A DNA stretch of 64,000 nt from Proteus penneri (lineage in GTDB: Bacteria > Pseudomonadota > Gammaproteobacteria > Enterobacterales > Enterobacteriaceae): contig NZ_PHFJ01000005.1 in NCBI RefSeq assembly GCF_003144535.1, positions 1-64,000 of the forward strand, read 5' to 3'. The position numbers and the translations under genes are program-made. Each line of letters begins with the position of its first letter. Position 1 is the stretch's first letter. Shown here one piece after another: positions 29,594 to 38,170 of this stretch. The notes under the pieces are model-generated. The model saw nothing but the letters and a program-made list of their open reading frames with translations. It made no database searches and was not told where the DNA came from.

Positions 29594-32610
<3,017 letters not shown>

Positions 32611-33105
32611 TTAGGTGTATTAGGATGATGGATATAACTGGACGGGAACACAGTATACCCGAACCTTATTTTCGCTACAAACATTCTTAGTAGTATAAAG
32701 TTCTTTTTCATCACGCCACTTATCCGTTTAAACACGAAAAAACAGTAAAAATTCAATTAACTAAACCCGTGAAAATATTTCACAAGCATTTTAGCTTAAT
32801 CCTTTCAGCTAAGCTATCACTTTTAGAGAAGAGATGCTTTATTTTTTCACAATATTAAGTGTAGCAGGTTTATAGCGAGATCTTTTGCTTATGATCATAC
32901 GTTTAATTTTTTTGAGATTAATCACACTTCTAATGTAATAGAATGCAAATGCAAAATTTTAAATCACCCAAAAACAAAAAAACGAAATTACATTTTATAA
33001 TTTTGATTTTTAAATATTTTTATAAAAATAGCTGAAAAAACGAGATGTTACAGACTATTTTTATCGCACTTTATGTCACGTTGGTGTTAATTTGCGTGTC
33101 ACAAT

Positions 33106-33906
33106 TCACTCAACCGGTTGTCCTTTTGCTTTCTGCCAACAGATCTCCATCTCTTCCAATGAGGCATTTTCTATGCCAGTGCCTTTTTCTGAGAGCATTT
33201 TTTCAACAAAACGAAAGCGCTGTTCAAATTTTCGGCATGCTCGATTTAATGCTTGCTCGGGTTTTTGTTTTAAATGACGTGATAAATTCACCACAGAAAA
33301 CAATAAATCACCTAACTCATCTTCAATTCGAGAGGCATCTTGAGGCTCTTTTTTCACCTCAGCTATCACTTCATCAATTTCTTCATAAACTTTACCCAAG
33401 ACAGGCTCTAGTTCATTCCAATCGAACCCCACTGAAGCACAACGCTTTTGAATTTTTTCTGCTTTCATTAAGGCTGGTAAAGTAGCGGGAATATCATCTA
33501 ATAATGAAAATTGTGCTTTTGCCTCACGCTCTTGAGCTTTAAGTTTTTCCCAACGATGTTTTTCTGTTGATAAATTGTTTTCGCTTTCAGAAGCAAAAAT
33601 ATGAGGGTGACGGCGTTCTAGCTTATTACTAATAGCTTCACAAACATCATTAAAATCAAATAACTTTTGCTCTTGCGCCATGCGTGAATAAAACACAACT
33701 TGATAAAGCAAATCGCCCAGCTCTTCTTTTAAATCAGCAAAATCTTTGCGTGTAATGGCATCTAATACTTCATAGGTTTCTTCTAATGTATAAGGTGCGA
33801 TAGTGTCAAAAGTCTGCACTTTATCCCATTCGCACCCTGTTTCAGGATCACGTAGCTGTACCATAATTTCTAATAAACGAAAGATTTCACGATTTTCTGA
33901 CATCAT
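33106..33906 (-). CDS. mazG: Nucleoside triphosphate pyrophosphohydrolase MazG
   Basis: MMSENREIFRLLEIMVQLRDPETGCEWDKVQTFDTIAPYTLEETYEVLDAI… matches E. coli MazG. Start at 33906 with AAAGG upstream. The ORF-track start at 33987 would overlap the repeat/terminator. Confidence 0.88.
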   Translation of the reverse strand: MMSENREIFRLLEIMVQLRDPETGCEWDKVQTFDTIAPYTLEETYEVLDAITRKDFADLKEELGDLLYQVVFYSRMAQEQKLFDFNDVCEAISNKLERRHPHIFASESENNLSTEKHRWEKLKAQEREAKAQFSLLDDIPATLPALMKAEKIQKRCASVGFDWNELEPVLGKVYEEIDEVIAEVKKEPQDASRIEDELGDLLFSVVNLSRHLKQKPEQALNRACRKFEQRFRFVEKMLSEKGTGIENASLEEMEICWQKAKGQPVE

Positions 33907-33948
33907 ATTGCCTTTTAAATAAGAGTGAGCGTTATCCTGTTTAATACA

Positions 33949-34000
33949 TTTTAGATAAAAAAATGCCGAGAACAGTTTTCTCGGCATCTTATCATTTCAA
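33949..34000. repeat. 52-bp direct repeat, copy 1, containing a terminator-like hairpin; left boundary of the inserted cassette
   Basis: ttttagataaaaaaATGCCGAGAacagtttTCTCGGCATcttatcatttcaa. Copy 2 is at 35877-35928, with 3 mismatches of which 2 are in the loop. On the minus strand the hairpin is followed by TTTTTTT. Confidence 0.75.
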
Positions 34001-34146
34001 GCTCAAGATCTTAAAAATAACTTTTTTGAAAGAATAATGACATTTTAAATTGAACTATAAATTTGTTATTTACAAATATACTCCTCGCTATAAATCCACT
34101 TTTCAACATCATATAAATACGTCATTTTTATCAAAGGATTAATAAA

Positions 34147-35421
34147 ATGGGTGAAAATATAATTCAATTTAGTTCATTAACTGTAACGCCACATAGTGCT
34201 TATATTCCTGAGTATGCTTTTAATAATGGTTTTTCTTTTAATCAAGCTACAAATATTATTTGTAATAATTTTATGCAGGATAAAAACCAAGAATGCCCTG
34301 TTTGCGGAAAGAAAAATTGTCCAGCGTTTAAAAATGAATGTAAATCTTACTTAAAACAGAAAACCGAGTTAGCATTAAAAAAAGCATTAATAATGCGACC
34401 TTATGGCCGTGCTTTAATGCATAGATCAAACGAGTTTAATAAAAGCTCTCCATTACTATTATTAAATATGGAAGAAAATAACATTCCATTAAATAATGAA
34501 AATATAGGTCGTATATTTGAAGCAGATCTGAATCTAAGTAGAATGTTTTACCAAAAAATGAACTATATAAATGGTTTTCTCTTTGATATTCATTTTAGTC
34601 CTCATCCAGATCCTATGTTACAAAATATAGGTGAAAAATTTGGGGAATATTCCCGCTGGTTACCCTCAGTTCGATTAGCCTTACATGCCTTATATGCGGA
34701 TAAAGGTGCAGACAATATAAATAATTTCCCTGAGATGCAAAAATACATCAGAGAACAAGATTTTAAATCCGCATGCCAAGATTTCCATAATAATATGACG
34801 TTTACATATCGCAATTTCCAAATTGCTGATATTTTAGCTCAACAAGCCAATAAAAAAGAACAAATAGATAATGATTTTAATCAGTTACATGATTCAATAA
34901 AGTTTACGGCTGATTTTTATAAAGAAGTGTTTAATGCTTATGGTGATAAAGCAAGGAAATTAGCAGAGTCTTTAGCCCAACAAGCCAGAGGAAAAACCAT
35001 CCGTAACGTTGATGATGCGCTAAAAGCTTACGAAAAATACAAAGTGGATATCAATAGAAGAATTAATGCCAAAGATCGTAAAGCTATTGCGACCGCATTG
35101 GAATCGATCAAAATCGATGATATAGCTCAAAAATTAAAAAAATTTAGTAAAGGTATGTTTTTTGTGAGTAAAGCTCTTGACGTCAAAGATCTATGGATAG
35201 AGTTAATTAAAGCAACAGAAACGGATGATTGGCGTCCATTTTTTGTTAAAGCAGAGACTATATTTGCAGGAATGGCGGTCACATCTGTAGCTGGATTTAC
35301 ATTTAGTGTACTTCTAGGAGGTCCTATAGGTATATTAGGATATGGATTGCTCATAGCTAGTATAGGAGCATTGATTAATAATGATTTAATCGAAAAAGCT
35401 AATAATTTAATTGGTATTTAA
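34147..35421 (+). CDS. Chimeric toxin candidate: novel N-terminal region (aa 1-~235, with a C-x2-C-x4-C-x6-C motif) fused to a colicin A/E1-type pore-forming (channel) domain (aa ~235-424)
   Basis: The C-terminus …GKTIRNVDDALKAYEKYKVDINRRINAKDRKAIATALESIKIDD…TDDWRPFFVKAETIFAGMAVTSVAGFTFSVLLGGPIGILGYGLLIASIGALINNDLIEKANNLIGI closely parallels the remembered colicin A end (…[66 protein letters not shown]) and the colicin E1 channel domain, including its hydrophobic helical hairpin. AAGGA lies 9 nt before the ATG. GC content is ~30%, against ~40% in the flanks. Confidence 0.7.
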   Translation: MGENIIQFSSLTVTPHSAYIPEYAFNNGFSFNQATNIICNNFMQDKNQECPVCGKKNCPAFKNECKSYLKQKTELALKKALIMRPYGRALMHRSNEFNKSSPLLLLNMEENNIPLNNENIGRIFEADLNLSRMFYQKMNYINGFLFDIHFSPHPDPMLQNIGEKFGEYSRWLPSVRLALHALYADKGADNINNFPEMQKYIREQDFKSACQDFHNNMTFTYRNFQIADILAQQANKKEQIDNDFNQLHDSIKFTADFYKEVFNAYGDKARKLAESLAQQARGKTIRNVDDALKAYEKYKVDINRRINAKDRKAIATALESIKIDDIAQKLKKFSKGMFFVSKALDVKDLWIELIKATETDDWRPFFVKAETIFAGMAVTSVAGFTFSVLLGGPIGILGYGLLIASIGALINNDLIEKANNLIGI

Positions 35422-35444
35422 TTAATAAATTAAAGGTTATTTAT

Positions 35445-35783
35445 TTAGAGAAAAAACCTTTTCACTGACACAAATAATATAAAAATCATTGTAATTGGTA
35501 TAGATAATAAAAACACTATAAAACTATATAAAGCTAAACCACCAGCTTTACCAGCTGTATCTAAAAATAATCCTCGATTCCAAAATTCTCTGGTAGTAAA
35601 TTGAAGAAAAAAACATTCAATTCCCCATTTAGCTAACGGATATAATACAATACCAGCAATACTAATTAACAATATTAAACTTTCATATTTTAACTCATAT
35701 TCTAAACAAGAGTATAAAAATAAAGCGCCAATAAACCATCCCCAACACATATTCTTAATATAATATTGTTTAGTTATCTTCAT
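35445..35783 (-). CDS. Pore-forming-colicin (E1-type) immunity-like inner-membrane protein
   Basis: 112 aa with three predicted TM helices. It is convergent with and immediately downstream of the toxin gene, the standard arrangement for pore-former immunity genes. The N-terminus MKITKQYYIKNMCWG… resembles the remembered ColE1 Imm start (MSLRYYIKNILFG…), and ColE1 Imm is 113 aa. Confidence 0.62.
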   Translation of the reverse strand: MKITKQYYIKNMCWGWFIGALFLYSCLEYELKYESLILLISIAGIVLYPLAKWGIECFFLQFTTREFWNRGLFLDTAGKAGGLALYSFIVFLLSIPITMIFILFVSVKRFFL

Positions 35784-35876
35784 ATTTATCTGCTAGATCC
35801 CTTTTATTTAAAACCATATTTACTTTAAATAAACCATAGCAATTTAATCACTAACTAAATATACAGTTTTTCTGAT

Positions 35877-35928
35877 TTTTAGATAAAAAAATGCCGAGAA
35901 CAATTGTCTCGGCATCTTATCATTTTAA
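35877..35928. repeat. 52-bp direct repeat, copy 2; rho-independent terminator of relA on the minus strand
   Basis: ttttagataaaaaaATGCCGAGAacaattgTCTCGGCATcttatcattttaa lies 5 nt downstream of the relA stop codon. Confidence 0.75.
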
Positions 35929-35932
35929 TGTT

Positions 35933-38170
35933 TTAGTGAGAAAAGCGTTTCGCCTCTATCACATCAGGCAGTTGATTAAGTTTTGCCAAAATACGACTTA
36001 ATACTTGGAGATTATAAATCTCAATATTCATATCGATTGTCGCAATTTGTTGCTTCACATCACTGCGGCTACTCACACCAAGTACATTCACTTTCTCATT
36101 GGCTAGAATAGTGGTGATATCGCGTAATAACCCACTACGATCATTCGCGACAACACGTACTACCAATGAATAACCGCTGGAATAATTCTCTCCCCATACT
36201 GCATCAACAATACGCTCTGGCGCATGAGAAAGTAATTCAGCAAGTTGTTCACAATCTGCTCGGTGAATCGAAATACCTCGACCTTTAGTAATAAAACCAA
36301 CAATATTATCACCCGGAATAGGCTGGCAACAGCGCGCAATATGATGCATTAAATTACCAACACCCTCAACGACAATACTACTCCCTGAGCCAGTGGTTCT
36401 TGGTGCTGGCGTTTTGCTTTCGAGTGTCCGCAGTGCCTCTTTATCTTCATCTTCTGCAGTGGCTTTATTTAATTTACTTTGAATAAAGTTCACTAATTGA
36501 TTAATTCGGATATCACCGACACCAATCCCAGCTAATACTTCATCAACACTATGCACGTTATAACGTGCAATCAGCAGTTTTTCTGCTTCTTTCATGTTGA
36601 TATCCATATGCGCCAATTCGTTATCTAAAATCTGACGCCCTGCAAGAATATTTTTATCGCGATCTTGCTTACGGAACCAATTGTGAATTTTCGCACGTCC
36701 ACGACTTGTCGTGACATAACCTAAATTAGGATTTAACCAATCACGACTCGGATTAGGATGTTTTTGCGTGATGATTTCAATTTGATCGCCCATCTGTAGC
36801 TGATAGCTAAAGGGCACAATGCGCCCGCCAATTTTCGCTCCAATGCAGCGGTGCCCCACATCACTATGAATATGATACGCAAAATCAAGCGGTGTTGAGC
36901 CAGCAGGTAAATCAACGACATCACCTTTTGGTGTAAAGACATACACTCGATCATCAAAAACCTGACTACGGACTTCATCCAACATTTCGCCAGAATCCGC
37001 CATCTCTTCTTGCCACGCAATCAGTTTACGTAGCCATGCAATACGGTTTTCATAACTTCCTGTACCGCCTTTCGTCGCAGCACCTGTAGCACCTTCTTTA
37101 TATTTCCAGTGCGCAGCCACACCCAACTCTGCATCTTCATGCATTTGGCGAGTACGAATTTGGATTTCAACTGTTTTACCTTCAGGCCCTAATACAACAG
37201 TATGAATAGATTGATAACCATTAGGCTTTGGATTTGCCACATAATCATCAAATTCATCAGGTAAATGGCGGAAATGCGTATGCACAATTCCCAATGCGGC
37301 ATAACAGTCTTGAAGACGTTCAACGACTATACGAACAGCCCTCACATCGAATAATTCATCAAATGCGAGGTTCTTTTTCTTCATTTTACGCCAAATACTG
37401 TAGATATGTTTGGGACGCCCATAGATATCTACATCAACATTCTCTTCTTTCATATAACCACGTACTGTACTGACAAAATTATCAATATACTGTTCGCGAT
37501 CGATACGGCGCTCATGAAGCAAGCTTGCTATTTTTTTGTATTCATCAGGATGAAGATAGCGGAAACAAAAATCTTCTAATTCCCATTTTAATTGACCAAT
37601 ACCCAATCGGTTGGCTAACGGCGCATAAATATTAAAACACTCTTTAGCGGCCAGTACGCGCTCATCTTCTGTGGCATCTTTTACTTCGCGTAAATGGGCT
37701 ATACGCTCTGATAGTTTAATGACTACACAACGGAAATCTTCTACCATAGATAACAACATACGACGTACGTTATCTACCTGAATGGAGCTTGTTTCATTGG
37801 TATGTGTCGCTTTTAATTGGCGTATGGCGTCCATCTCCATAACACCACGCACTAAACTCCAAATAGCATCACCAAAGTGTTCAGTGACAATTTCCTGACC
37901 AATAAGATTTTCTTCAGCAAGAGGGAAAAGAAGCGCTGCCCTCATGCTGTCTTTATCCATGCTGAGTGTCGAAAGAAGCTCAACCATTTCAACACCACGC
38001 CACAATAGCCGTTCAGCATCTTCACGCCCTTGAACAGTACGATGGCAGTATTCCCAGGTTTGCATGATTTCACTACCCGCATTGGTATGAGTTAAGTTCA
38101 AGCTGTTAACCCATTTATCAACAGCAAACTCTCCCGCAGGTGTTAAGTGAGCACTTCTTACTGCAACCAT
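35933..38170 (-). CDS. relA: GTP pyrophosphokinase ((p)ppGpp synthetase I)
   Basis: 745 aa, full-length RelA match. Confidence 0.95.
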   Translation of the reverse strand: MVAVRSAHLTPAGEFAVDKWVNSLNLTHTNAGSEIMQTWEYCHRTVQGREDAERLLWRGVEMVELLSTLSMDKDSMRAALLFPLAEENLIGQEIVTEHFGDAIWSLVRGVMEMDAIRQLKATHTNETSSIQVDNVRRMLLSMVEDFRCVVIKLSERIAHLREVKDATEDERVLAAKECFNIYAPLANRLGIGQLKWELEDFCFRYLHPDEYKKIASLLHERRIDREQYIDNFVSTVRGYMKEENVDVDIYGRPKHIYSIWRKMKKKNLAFDELFDVRAVRIVVERLQDCYAALGIVHTHFRHLPDEFDDYVANPKPNGYQSIHTVVLGPEGKTVEIQIRTRQMHEDAELGVAAHWKYKEGATGAATKGGTGSYENRIAWLRKLIAWQEEMADSGEMLDEVRSQVFDDRVYVFTPKGDVVDLPAGSTPLDFAYHIHSDVGHRCIGAKIGGRIVPFSYQLQMGDQIEIITQKHPNPSRDWLNPNLGYVTTSRGRAKIHNWFRKQDRDKNILAGRQILDNELAHMDINMKEAEKLLIARYNVHSVDEVLAGIGVGDIRINQLVNFIQSKLNKATAEDEDKEALRTLESKTPAPRTTGSGSSIVVEGVGNLMHHIARCCQPIPGDNIVGFITKGRGISIHRADCEQLAELLSHAPERIVDAVWGENYSSGYSLVVRVVANDRSGLLRDITTILANEKVNVLGVSSRSDVKQQIATIDMNIEIYNLQVLSRILAKLNQLPDVIEAKRFSH

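What the first reader, a model, noticed from the sequence alone, without database searches (positions are those of the whole stretch)
33949..35928. Cassette is bracketed by a duplicated 52-bp relA-terminator sequence (direct repeats at 33949-34000 and 35877-35928)
The two copies differ at only 3 positions. Each contains the 9-bp-stem hairpin ATGCCGAGA…TCTCGGCAT followed, on the minus strand, by a T7 run, so each is a functional-looking terminator. Copy 2 is the relA terminator. Copy 1 sits just upstream of mazG. Direct repeats of this length flanking a 1.9-kb insert with foreign base composition are the footprint of an insertion that duplicated its target. They could also drive excision or loss of the module by homologous recombination. 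The duplication also means both relA and the immunity gene terminate before reaching mazG.
Basis: seen in the sequence. Interest (0 to 1): 0.6.

Follow-up and report, generated by a model that had tools for sequence, protein, structure and literature searches.

The report
Duplicated relA terminator flanking colicin cassette
A 1.9-kb bacteriocin (colicin plus immunity) cassette entered the relA terminator of an ancestral Proteus chromosome once, leaving a copy of that terminator on each side; related species without the cassette have exactly one copy, so this is a tidy but ordinary insertion scar.

Summary
Two 52-nt direct repeats (33949-34000 and 35877-35928, 49/52 identical) bracket an AT-rich 1,876-bp insert. 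The insert encodes a pore-forming colicin and an E1-type immunity protein, and it lies between relA and mazG.

The event is old. Seven species share identical junctions, and the slowly evolving cassette parts track the flanking-gene tree. Empty species are nested among occupied ones, which fits repeated precise loss by recombination between the repeats.

No transposase, recombinase or terminal inverted repeats are present, and the repeat occurs nowhere else, so the integration mechanism is unresolved. It is not classical transposition.

The relA-side copy is conserved everywhere. The mazG-side copy is intact in this genome but has independently lost its hairpin in several sister lineages, so only the relA-side copy appears to be under constraint as a terminator.

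This is a new member of a known kind, of modest interest.

The parts
35877..35928 (-). Repeat copy R2 (relA side). It is the relA intrinsic terminator: hairpin 35891-35915 followed by T7 on the minus strand. It is conserved in all occupied and empty genomes.
33949..34000 (-). Repeat copy R1 (mazG side). It is the duplicated terminator sequence: hairpin 33963-33987 followed by T7 on the minus strand. It is intact here and decayed in several sister species.
34001..35876 (.). The 1,876-bp insert, absent from empty sites. GC is 0.289. It has no terminal inverted repeats and no recombinase gene.
34147..35421 (+). 424-aa colicin-like bacteriocin. The pore-forming domain spans residues 245-421 and is closest to colicin Ia/Ib, pyocin S5 and E1. 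The N-terminal 225 residues have no solved relative.
35445..35783 (-). 112-aa colicin E1-type immunity protein, convergent with the colicin gene.
35933..38170 (-). relA, the (p)ppGpp synthetase gene. Its stop codon lies 5 nt upstream of R2.
33106..33903 (-). mazG, the nucleoside triphosphate pyrophosphohydrolase gene. The 293-aa ORF that extends to 33987 and overlaps R1 is a start-codon artefact of some gene callers.

Best explanation
A colicin-immunity cassette integrated once at the relA intrinsic terminator. This happened in the common ancestor of the P. vulgaris-P. penneri-P. hauseri clade, after it split from P. mirabilis and P. myxofaciens. The event left a 54-bp copy of the terminator region on each side of the 1.87-kb insert. 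The structure has since been inherited mostly vertically.

The relA-side copy still terminates relA. Read on the other strand, it probably also stops colicin transcripts from running antisense into relA. The mazG-side copy stops transcripts leaving the cassette towards mazG, but it is dispensable and decays in several lineages.

The repeats are substrates for homologous recombination. That recombination has deleted the cassette precisely several times and restored a single-copy empty site. Retention elsewhere is probably enforced by the need for immunity to the colicin made by relatives.

Shown here: the repeats, the single-copy empty sites, the identical junctions, the nested distribution and the asymmetric decay. 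Inferred: the integration mechanism (most likely a one-off single-crossover or illegitimate integration, not transposition), deletion by repeat recombination, and terminator activity.
For: - Empty sites with one copy: P. columbae, P. vulgaris, fly-1077, P. myxofaciens, and P. mirabilis with a diverged hairpin in the same place; four P. terrae-like contigs; 24 P. mirabilis contigs.
- Identical left and right junctions in the window species, six further species and two metagenome contigs.
- In P. terrae the two copies differ at 1 of 54 positions, and each penneri copy differs from the ancestral sequence by its own substitutions.
- In the flank trees the outgroups are empty, and each empty ingroup species is sister to an occupied one.
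- The tree and distances for the colicin N-terminal half plus upstream region roughly follow the flanks.
- All strains of the window species that were examined carry the cassette and both copies, with the same fixed differences.
- R2 shows 0-2 changes, always keeps T7 and folds at -16.4 to -19.3 kcal/mol. R1 shows 1-5 changes, four independent stem-breaking mutations, T6 in four lineages, and energies as weak as -8.0.
- Many P. faecis strains have a 586-bp colicin deletion but keep the immunity gene.
Against: - No donor molecule carrying the cassette next to a single repeat copy was found in plasmids, phages, viral contigs or metagenomes. How the duplication arose is therefore unknown.
- The immunity and pore-domain segment clearly moves between lineages, so some horizontal exchange at this locus is real. 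That exchange could also explain some empty or occupied states.
- The colicin N-terminal region of P. hauseri is less diverged (0.07) than its flanks (0.12-0.13).
- The contrast of 4 versus 0 disruptive stem changes is suggestive only (one-sided binomial about 0.06).
- No transcript or excision data exist.
Confidence: 0.62

Rival explanations
1. The empty sites inside the clade are ancestral and never held the cassette. The cassette, together with its flanking repeats, has spread among Proteus species by homologous recombination in relA and mazG, as allelic replacement. The repeats would then reflect one original event, but the present distribution would reflect gains rather than losses.
For: - The immunity and pore-domain alleles are trans-specific and also polymorphic within the window species, which shows recombination at this locus.
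- The tree of the first 400 nt of mazG is partly incongruent with the longer flank trees.
- The P. hauseri cassette is less diverged than its flanks.
Against: - This needs about five independent gains, against one gain and three or four losses.
- The colicin N-terminal and upstream tree is broadly congruent with the flanks, and its distances scale with them.
- Flanks of the empty species group with their occupied sister species in both relA and the mazG-pyrG-eno stretch.
Confidence: 0.2
2. The 54-bp repeats are attL/attR-type sites of a site-specific system. A recombinase encoded elsewhere recognises the terminator hairpin (9-bp inverted arms around a 5-7-bp spacer) and can integrate and excise the small cassette through a circular form.
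For: - The repeats are direct repeats of att-like length with an inverted-repeat core.
- Empty sites are precise.
- No transposon features are present.
Against: - The insert encodes no recombinase.
- The repeat and the cassette were found at this one locus only, in 64 kb plus two long metagenome contigs (487 and 149 kb), and in no viral contig.
- The mazG-side site has accumulated mutations in its arms without loss of the cassette.
- All intrinsic terminators share this geometry.
Confidence: 0.07
3. The repeats are a target-site duplication made by a transposase acting on a non-autonomous transposon.
For: Direct repeats of target sequence flank a foreign insert, and the empty site holds one copy.
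Against: - Known bacterial transposases make duplications of about 2-15 bp (established knowledge), whereas this one is 54 bp.
- The insert ends show no inverted repeats.
- There is no transposase gene, and only one insertion site was found anywhere.
Confidence: 0.03
4. The two copies are unrelated members of a dispersed repeat family (REP/ERIC-like), or the cassette's own terminator happens to resemble the relA terminator.
For: Hairpin-containing intergenic repeats are common in Enterobacterales. In Providencia the same junction holds tandem 142-nt hairpin units.
Against: - There are only two copies in the window, and none elsewhere in the long Proteus contigs that were hit.
- Identity extends 13 nt and 16 nt beyond the hairpin, and the two copies were 53/54 or 54/54 identical ancestrally.
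- The chance expectation is 0.
Confidence: 0.01

Closest known systems
Plasmid-borne pore-forming colicin operons of the Ia/Ib/E1 group
   Same: The pore domain matches PF01024 at E = 3e-52, and the best solved relatives are colicin Ia, colicin Ib, pyocin S5 and colicin E1. The small E1-type immunity gene lies on the opposite strand directly downstream of the toxin gene. There is no lysis gene, as in Ia/Ib (operon layout from established knowledge).
   Different: The cassette is chromosomal and fixed at one housekeeping junction. No LexA/SOS box lies upstream of the colicin, although a 72%-identical relative (L079) has one. The unrelated 225-residue N-terminal part has no solved homologue. The cassette is flanked by a duplicated host terminator.
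Integrated elements flanked by direct repeats of their attachment site (attL/attR of prophages, genomic islands, Xer-dependent elements)
   Same: Direct repeats of host target sequence flank the foreign DNA, the empty site holds one copy, and the function of the interrupted host feature (here a terminator) is preserved on the host-gene side.
   Different: There is no integrase in or beside the insert, the insert is only two genes long, no circular or extrachromosomal form is known, only one locus is involved, and one repeat is decaying.
mazEF toxin-antitoxin module between relA and mazG in Escherichia coli
   Same: The chromosomal junction is the same. E. coli K-12 has rlmD-relA-mazE-mazF-mazG-pyrG. 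Proteus has rlmD-relA-[immunity, colicin]-mazG-pyrG. Both are two-gene toxin/antidote modules.
   Different: The proteins are unrelated and work differently (an intracellular endoribonuclease with its antitoxin, against an exported pore-former with a membrane immunity protein). mazEF is co-oriented with relA, whereas the colicin is on the opposite strand. No duplicated terminator was examined at the E. coli site.

Membership tests
Intrinsic (Rho-independent) terminator | A G+C-rich hairpin immediately followed by a U-tract on the transcribed strand | tested here: met
   Both copies have a 12-13-pair stem including the 9-bp GC-containing core, then T7, on the minus strand. Fold energies are -19.6 and -18.4 kcal/mol, z about -5.
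Intrinsic (Rho-independent) terminator | Transcript 3' ends map to the U-tract | not testable with these tools
   This needs Term-seq, 3' RACE or a reporter assay.
Intrinsic (Rho-independent) terminator | Hairpin conserved across relatives | tested here: inconclusive
   The relA-side copy is conserved in all 13 distinct haplotypes and all empty sites. The mazG-side copy has a broken stem in P. faecis (two separate mutations), FME41 and P. hauseri.
Transposon or MITE with target-site duplication | Terminal inverted repeats at the ends of the insert | tested here: not met
   No inverted repeat pairs the two insert ends.
Transposon or MITE with target-site duplication | Short duplication (about 2-15 bp) and multiple insertion sites | tested here: not met
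   The duplication is 54 bp. A single locus is found in all genomes and contigs.
Site-specifically integrated element (att sites) | Direct repeats of the target core flank the element, and the empty site has one copy | tested here: met
Site-specifically integrated element (att sites) | A cognate recombinase is encoded in or next to the element | tested here: not met
   The insert has only two real ORFs, the colicin and the immunity gene. The neighbours are relA and mazG.
Site-specifically integrated element (att sites) | An excised circular form exists | not testable with these tools
   This needs outward-facing PCR or read-level data.
Pore-forming colicin / E1-type immunity pair | C-terminal colicin pore-forming domain | tested here: met
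   PF01024 at E = 3e-52, residues 245-421. Colicin Ia 1cii at E = 1.5e-54.
Pore-forming colicin / E1-type immunity pair | Cognate small membrane immunity gene adjacent, on the opposite strand | tested here: met
   PF03526 at E = 3.3e-7, above Pfam's cut-off. The gene is convergent and 23 nt from the colicin stop.
Pore-forming colicin / E1-type immunity pair | SOS (LexA) box upstream of the toxin gene | tested here: not met
   No CTGT-N8-ACAG match with up to 1 mismatch lies in 34001-34146. The relative L079 has one.
Dispersed intergenic repeat family (REP/ERIC-like) | Many copies at unrelated loci | tested here: not met
   There are two copies in the window. In the viral and metagenome collections the sequence occurs only at this locus.

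The most novel reading that the evidence does not exclude
The relA terminator hairpin is a dedicated landing site. An unidentified recombinase or hairpin-directed mechanism, acting in trans, inserts and removes very small toxin modules at the relA-mazG junction (colicin-immunity in Proteus, mazEF in E. coli). This would place them under the transcriptional influence of the stringent-response gene.
Probability: 0.06. Interest if true: 0.7.

Novelty: new member of a known kind. Interest (0 to 1): 0.33.

Why it matters
This is a clean natural example in which an insertion, its empty site and later precise losses can all be read from sequence. It shows a chromosomally domesticated colicin whose immunity and pore segment is under diversifying exchange while the locus itself stays fixed. 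It also suggests a testable idea: short duplicated terminators both insulate a foreign convergent gene pair from its housekeeping neighbours and provide the route for losing it. The asymmetric decay of the two copies gives a simple natural experiment on which terminator is needed. It does not reveal a new kind of mobile element or mechanism.

Tried and rejected
- **Source of the cassette.** A search of plasmids (blastn; megablast with the divergent relative L079) gave only about 65% matches to colicin Ia/E1-type plasmids over the pore and immunity part, with no copy of the repeat.
- **The repeat in other collections.** Viral contigs gave nothing. Metagenome contigs gave only the same locus.
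- **Same-species empty site.** Exact-protein look-ups of colicin, MazG and RelA found only occupied sites in the window species. The first MazG look-up used the wrong start codon and found one fragment.
- **SOS boxes.** None lies upstream of the colicin.
- **Rfam.** Over 32500-36500 there were only chance-level hits far below the gathering scores.
- **Literature.** Searches for a Proteus colicin at relA-mazG, or for repeats at the mazEF site, found nothing relevant. PMC8749433 did not state the gene order, so the order was read from the K-12 annotation instead.
- **Terminal inverted repeats.** None were found.
- **Flanking repeats around L079.** Only a 27-nt, 70% match was found, which is at chance level.
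- **The L079 left-flank match.** It hit an unannotated stretch of a P. mirabilis record and was uninformative.
- **Rejected explanations.** Transposon target-site duplication, a dispersed repeat family, and an independent cassette-borne terminator.

Full report
**1. What is in the window**

The minus strand carries, in transcription order, rlmD (39567-38242), relA (38170-35933), mazG (33903-33106) and pyrG (32595-30958). Between relA and mazG lie two further genes:
- a 424-aa protein on the plus strand (34147-35421), whose residues 245-421 match the colicin pore-forming domain PF01024 (E = 3e-52);
- a convergent 112-aa protein on the minus strand (35783-35445), which matches the colicin E1 immunity family PF03526 above its curated cut-off.

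The pore domain is closest to colicin Ia, colicin Ib, pyocin S5 and colicin E1 among solved structures. The first 225 residues have no solved relative.

Exact copies of the colicin and RelA occur in assemblies whose proteins NCBI names Proteus penneri. The window is therefore from P. penneri or a very close relative.

**2. The observation**

The repeat finder gives one 52-nt direct-repeat pair at exactly the stated coordinates, 49/52 identical and 1,928 nt apart.
- The mismatches are at repeat positions 27, 30 and 50.
- No further copy exists in the window, and shuffles give none.
- Each copy contains the hairpin ATGCCGAGA/TCTCGGCAT followed on the minus strand by T7. Both are scored as terminator-like on the minus strand, and less convincingly on the plus strand, where the tail is CTTATCATTT.
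- Minus-strand RNA folds are -19.6 kcal/mol (mazG side) and -18.4 kcal/mol (relA side), with z about -5.
- The 1,876 bp between the copies has GC 0.289, the lowest of any stretch of that length in the window (mean 0.385, sd 0.030).

**3. The empty site**

A scan of one genome per species with MazG returned eleven Proteus loci.
- In five of them relA and mazG are about 105 nt apart, and the spacer holds exactly one copy of the sequence: P. columbae, P. vulgaris, P. myxofaciens and a second 'P. hauseri' species (fly-1077). P. mirabilis has a diverged hairpin with a T7 run at the same position.
- Six species carry the colicin, the immunity gene and two copies: P. faecis, P. terrae, P. cibi, P. 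alimentorum, sp. FME41 and P. hauseri ATCC 700826.
- Twenty-four P. mirabilis contigs are all empty.

Its prediction (one copy) is met.

**4. One event, and an old one**

All occupied genomes share the same two junctions. This covers the window species, the six other species and two metagenome contigs. Written in the relA-to-mazG direction, the junctions are ...ATCTAAAAAT|CAGAAAAACTGTATATTT... on the relA side and ...AAGATCTTGAGC|TT(G/A)AAATGATAAG... on the mazG side.

The inferred ancestral duplicated unit is 54 nt: TTAAAATGATAAG, then the 25-nt hairpin, then TTTTTTATCTAAAAAT.
- In P. terrae the two copies still differ at only one position.
- In the window species each copy carries its own derived loop substitution.
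- All 23 identical-haplotype loci of the window species show the same fixed differences, so there is no sign of continuing homogenisation.

Neighbour-joining trees of relA and of the 5.7 kb downstream of the junction give the same picture. P. mirabilis and P. myxofaciens, both empty, fall outside a clade in which every empty species is sister to an occupied one: columbae with alimentorum, vulgaris with terrae, and fly-1077 with hauseri ATCC.

The slowly evolving part of the insert is the colicin N-terminal half plus its upstream region. Its tree is broadly congruent with the flanks, and its distances to the window sequence (0.035-0.094) scale with the flank distances.

The simplest history is one gain followed by at least three precise losses. 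In addition, four contigs sit at empty sites although their mazG-pyrG region is 98.1-98.6% identical, and their relA 96.4-96.7% identical, to the occupied P. terrae type strain. Both states therefore occur within or very near one species.

A loss by recombination between the repeats would regenerate exactly the single-copy site that is observed. This step is inferred. Replacement by an empty allele through recombination in the flanking genes cannot be excluded.

**5. How the duplication arose**

This is not resolved.
- The insert encodes nothing but the toxin and the immunity protein.
- Its ends have no inverted repeats.
- 54 bp is far longer than the duplications made by bacterial transposases (established knowledge).
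- No plasmid, phage, viral or metagenome sequence carries the cassette beside a single repeat copy.

A 72%-identical colicin-immunity pair (L079/L080) lies in a different context. It has no long flanking repeats and a canonical LexA box (CTGTGTTTGCATACAG) upstream of the toxin gene. The window cassette has no such box, so its regulation seems to have changed after it settled in the chromosome.

My best guess is a one-off integration. It could have been a single crossover with a circular molecule that carried the terminator sequence, or an illegitimate insertion with staggered joins on the two sides of the terminator. A hairpin-directed, recombinase-mediated process remains possible but has no positive support.

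**6. What the two copies do now**

Across 13 distinct haplotypes:

| Feature | relA-side copy (R2) | mazG-side copy (R1) |
|---|---|---|
| Changes from the ancestral 54-mer | 0-2 | 1-5 |
| T-run | T7 in every haplotype | shortened to T6 in four lineages |
| Fold energy (kcal/mol) | -16.4 to -19.3 | as weak as -8.0 |
| Stem changes | one, which preserves a G.U pair | four independent disruptive changes: two different ones in P. faecis strains, a 1-nt deletion in FME41, and G to A in P. hauseri |

Only the relA-side copy therefore looks constrained as a terminator. In that picture relA stops at copy 2, and transcripts leaving the cassette towards mazG stop at copy 1.

The colicin and immunity genes are convergent, with only a weak AT-rich hairpin between them. 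Because of this, the relA-side copy read on the plus strand is also the first plausible stop for colicin transcripts before they would run antisense into relA. This is inference.

A possible reason for the decay of the mazG-side copy is selection for read-through into mazG, which lost its direct link to relA transcription. This is speculation and can be tested with reporters.

**7. Why the cassette persists despite the repeats**

The immunity gene and pore domain fall into deeply diverged allele classes, about 30% and 13% nucleotide divergence. These classes are shared across species and also segregate within the window species as 112-aa and 114-aa immunity proteins. The rest of the cassette is nearly identical within the species.

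Many P. faecis strains carry a 586-bp deletion in the colicin gene but keep the immunity gene. Some apparent frameshifts in P. penneri assemblies may be sequencing errors. One such assembly also splits mazG, and another has an extra T in a homopolymer.

These patterns are the usual signature of selection on colicin specificity and on immunity. They would explain why a cassette that is easy to delete is nevertheless retained.

**8. Comparison with what is known**

The toxin-immunity pair is an ordinary member of the E1/Ia group of pore-forming colicins by its domains and gene layout. It is unusual in being chromosomal, lacking an SOS box, and having its own N-terminal part.

The repeats behave like attL/attR scars, but the element fails the recombinase criterion. 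It also fails every transposon criterion.

In E. coli K-12 the same junction holds the mazEF toxin-antitoxin pair. In Providencia it holds a variable tandem array of 142-nt hairpin units. The relA-mazG junction is thus repeatedly remodelled in Enterobacterales, by different means in each case.

Literature searches found no description of this Proteus locus.

**9. Verdict**

Two corrections apply: the event is ancient rather than recent, and the mechanism is not transposition-type target duplication. The finding is a new member of a known kind (a chromosomal bacteriocin cassette with a duplicated insertion target) and is of modest interest.

Noticed in passing
window 35445-35783 and 34879-35421; loci L012, L019, L024, L028, L029: The immunity gene and colicin pore domain exist as deeply diverged allele classes (about 30% and 13% nt divergence). 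The classes are shared across Proteus species and segregate within the window species (112-aa versus 114-aa immunity), while the rest of the cassette is nearly identical. This is a classic pattern of diversifying exchange of specificity.
   Followed up: partly
L088 and L091 (about 2070-2760); the look-up reports 16 further similar places: Many P. faecis-type strains have a 586-bp deletion that removes most of the colicin N-terminal half, leaving a 208-aa remnant. The immunity gene stays intact, so these strains are immunity-only 'cheater' alleles.
   Followed up: partly
L081 6001-7281 (Chrysoperla carnea chromosome FR997757.1): The closest full-length relative outside Proteus is a 426-aa 'colicin-5-like' gene in a 77-Mb lacewing chromosome (47% identity over 99% of the query). 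No immunity ORF or other bacterial-type ORFs lie within 3 kb. It could be a bacterium-to-insect gene transfer or an assembly contaminant.
   Followed up: partly
L095-L100, relA-mazG spacer: Providencia strains with identical MazG have relA-mazG spacers of about 314, 391, 533 or 675 nt. The spacers are made of 2-5 tandem copies of a roughly 142-nt unit containing a GC-rich hairpin, and they hold no genes.
   Followed up: partly
L079 240-270; window 34001-34146: A 72%-identical colicin-immunity pair in another context has a canonical LexA box upstream of the toxin gene. The window's cassette has none, which suggests its regulation is no longer SOS-dependent.
   Followed up: partly
window 33904-33987: Some gene callers extend mazG to a 293-aa ORF starting at 33987, inside repeat copy 1. 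The 265-aa start at 33903 is conserved across species and preceded by AAAAGG, so the extension is an annotation artefact.
   Followed up: yes
L110 (E. coli K-12 NC_000913.3 2908000-2915500): E. coli carries the mazEF toxin-antitoxin pair at the same relA-mazG junction where Proteus carries the colicin-immunity pair.
   Followed up: yes
window 34288-34338 (colicin residues 48-64): The colicin N-terminal part contains a four-cysteine motif, CPVCGKKNCPAFKNEC. The motif is conserved in the 72%-identical relative, is unusual for colicins, and has no solved homologue.
   Followed up: no
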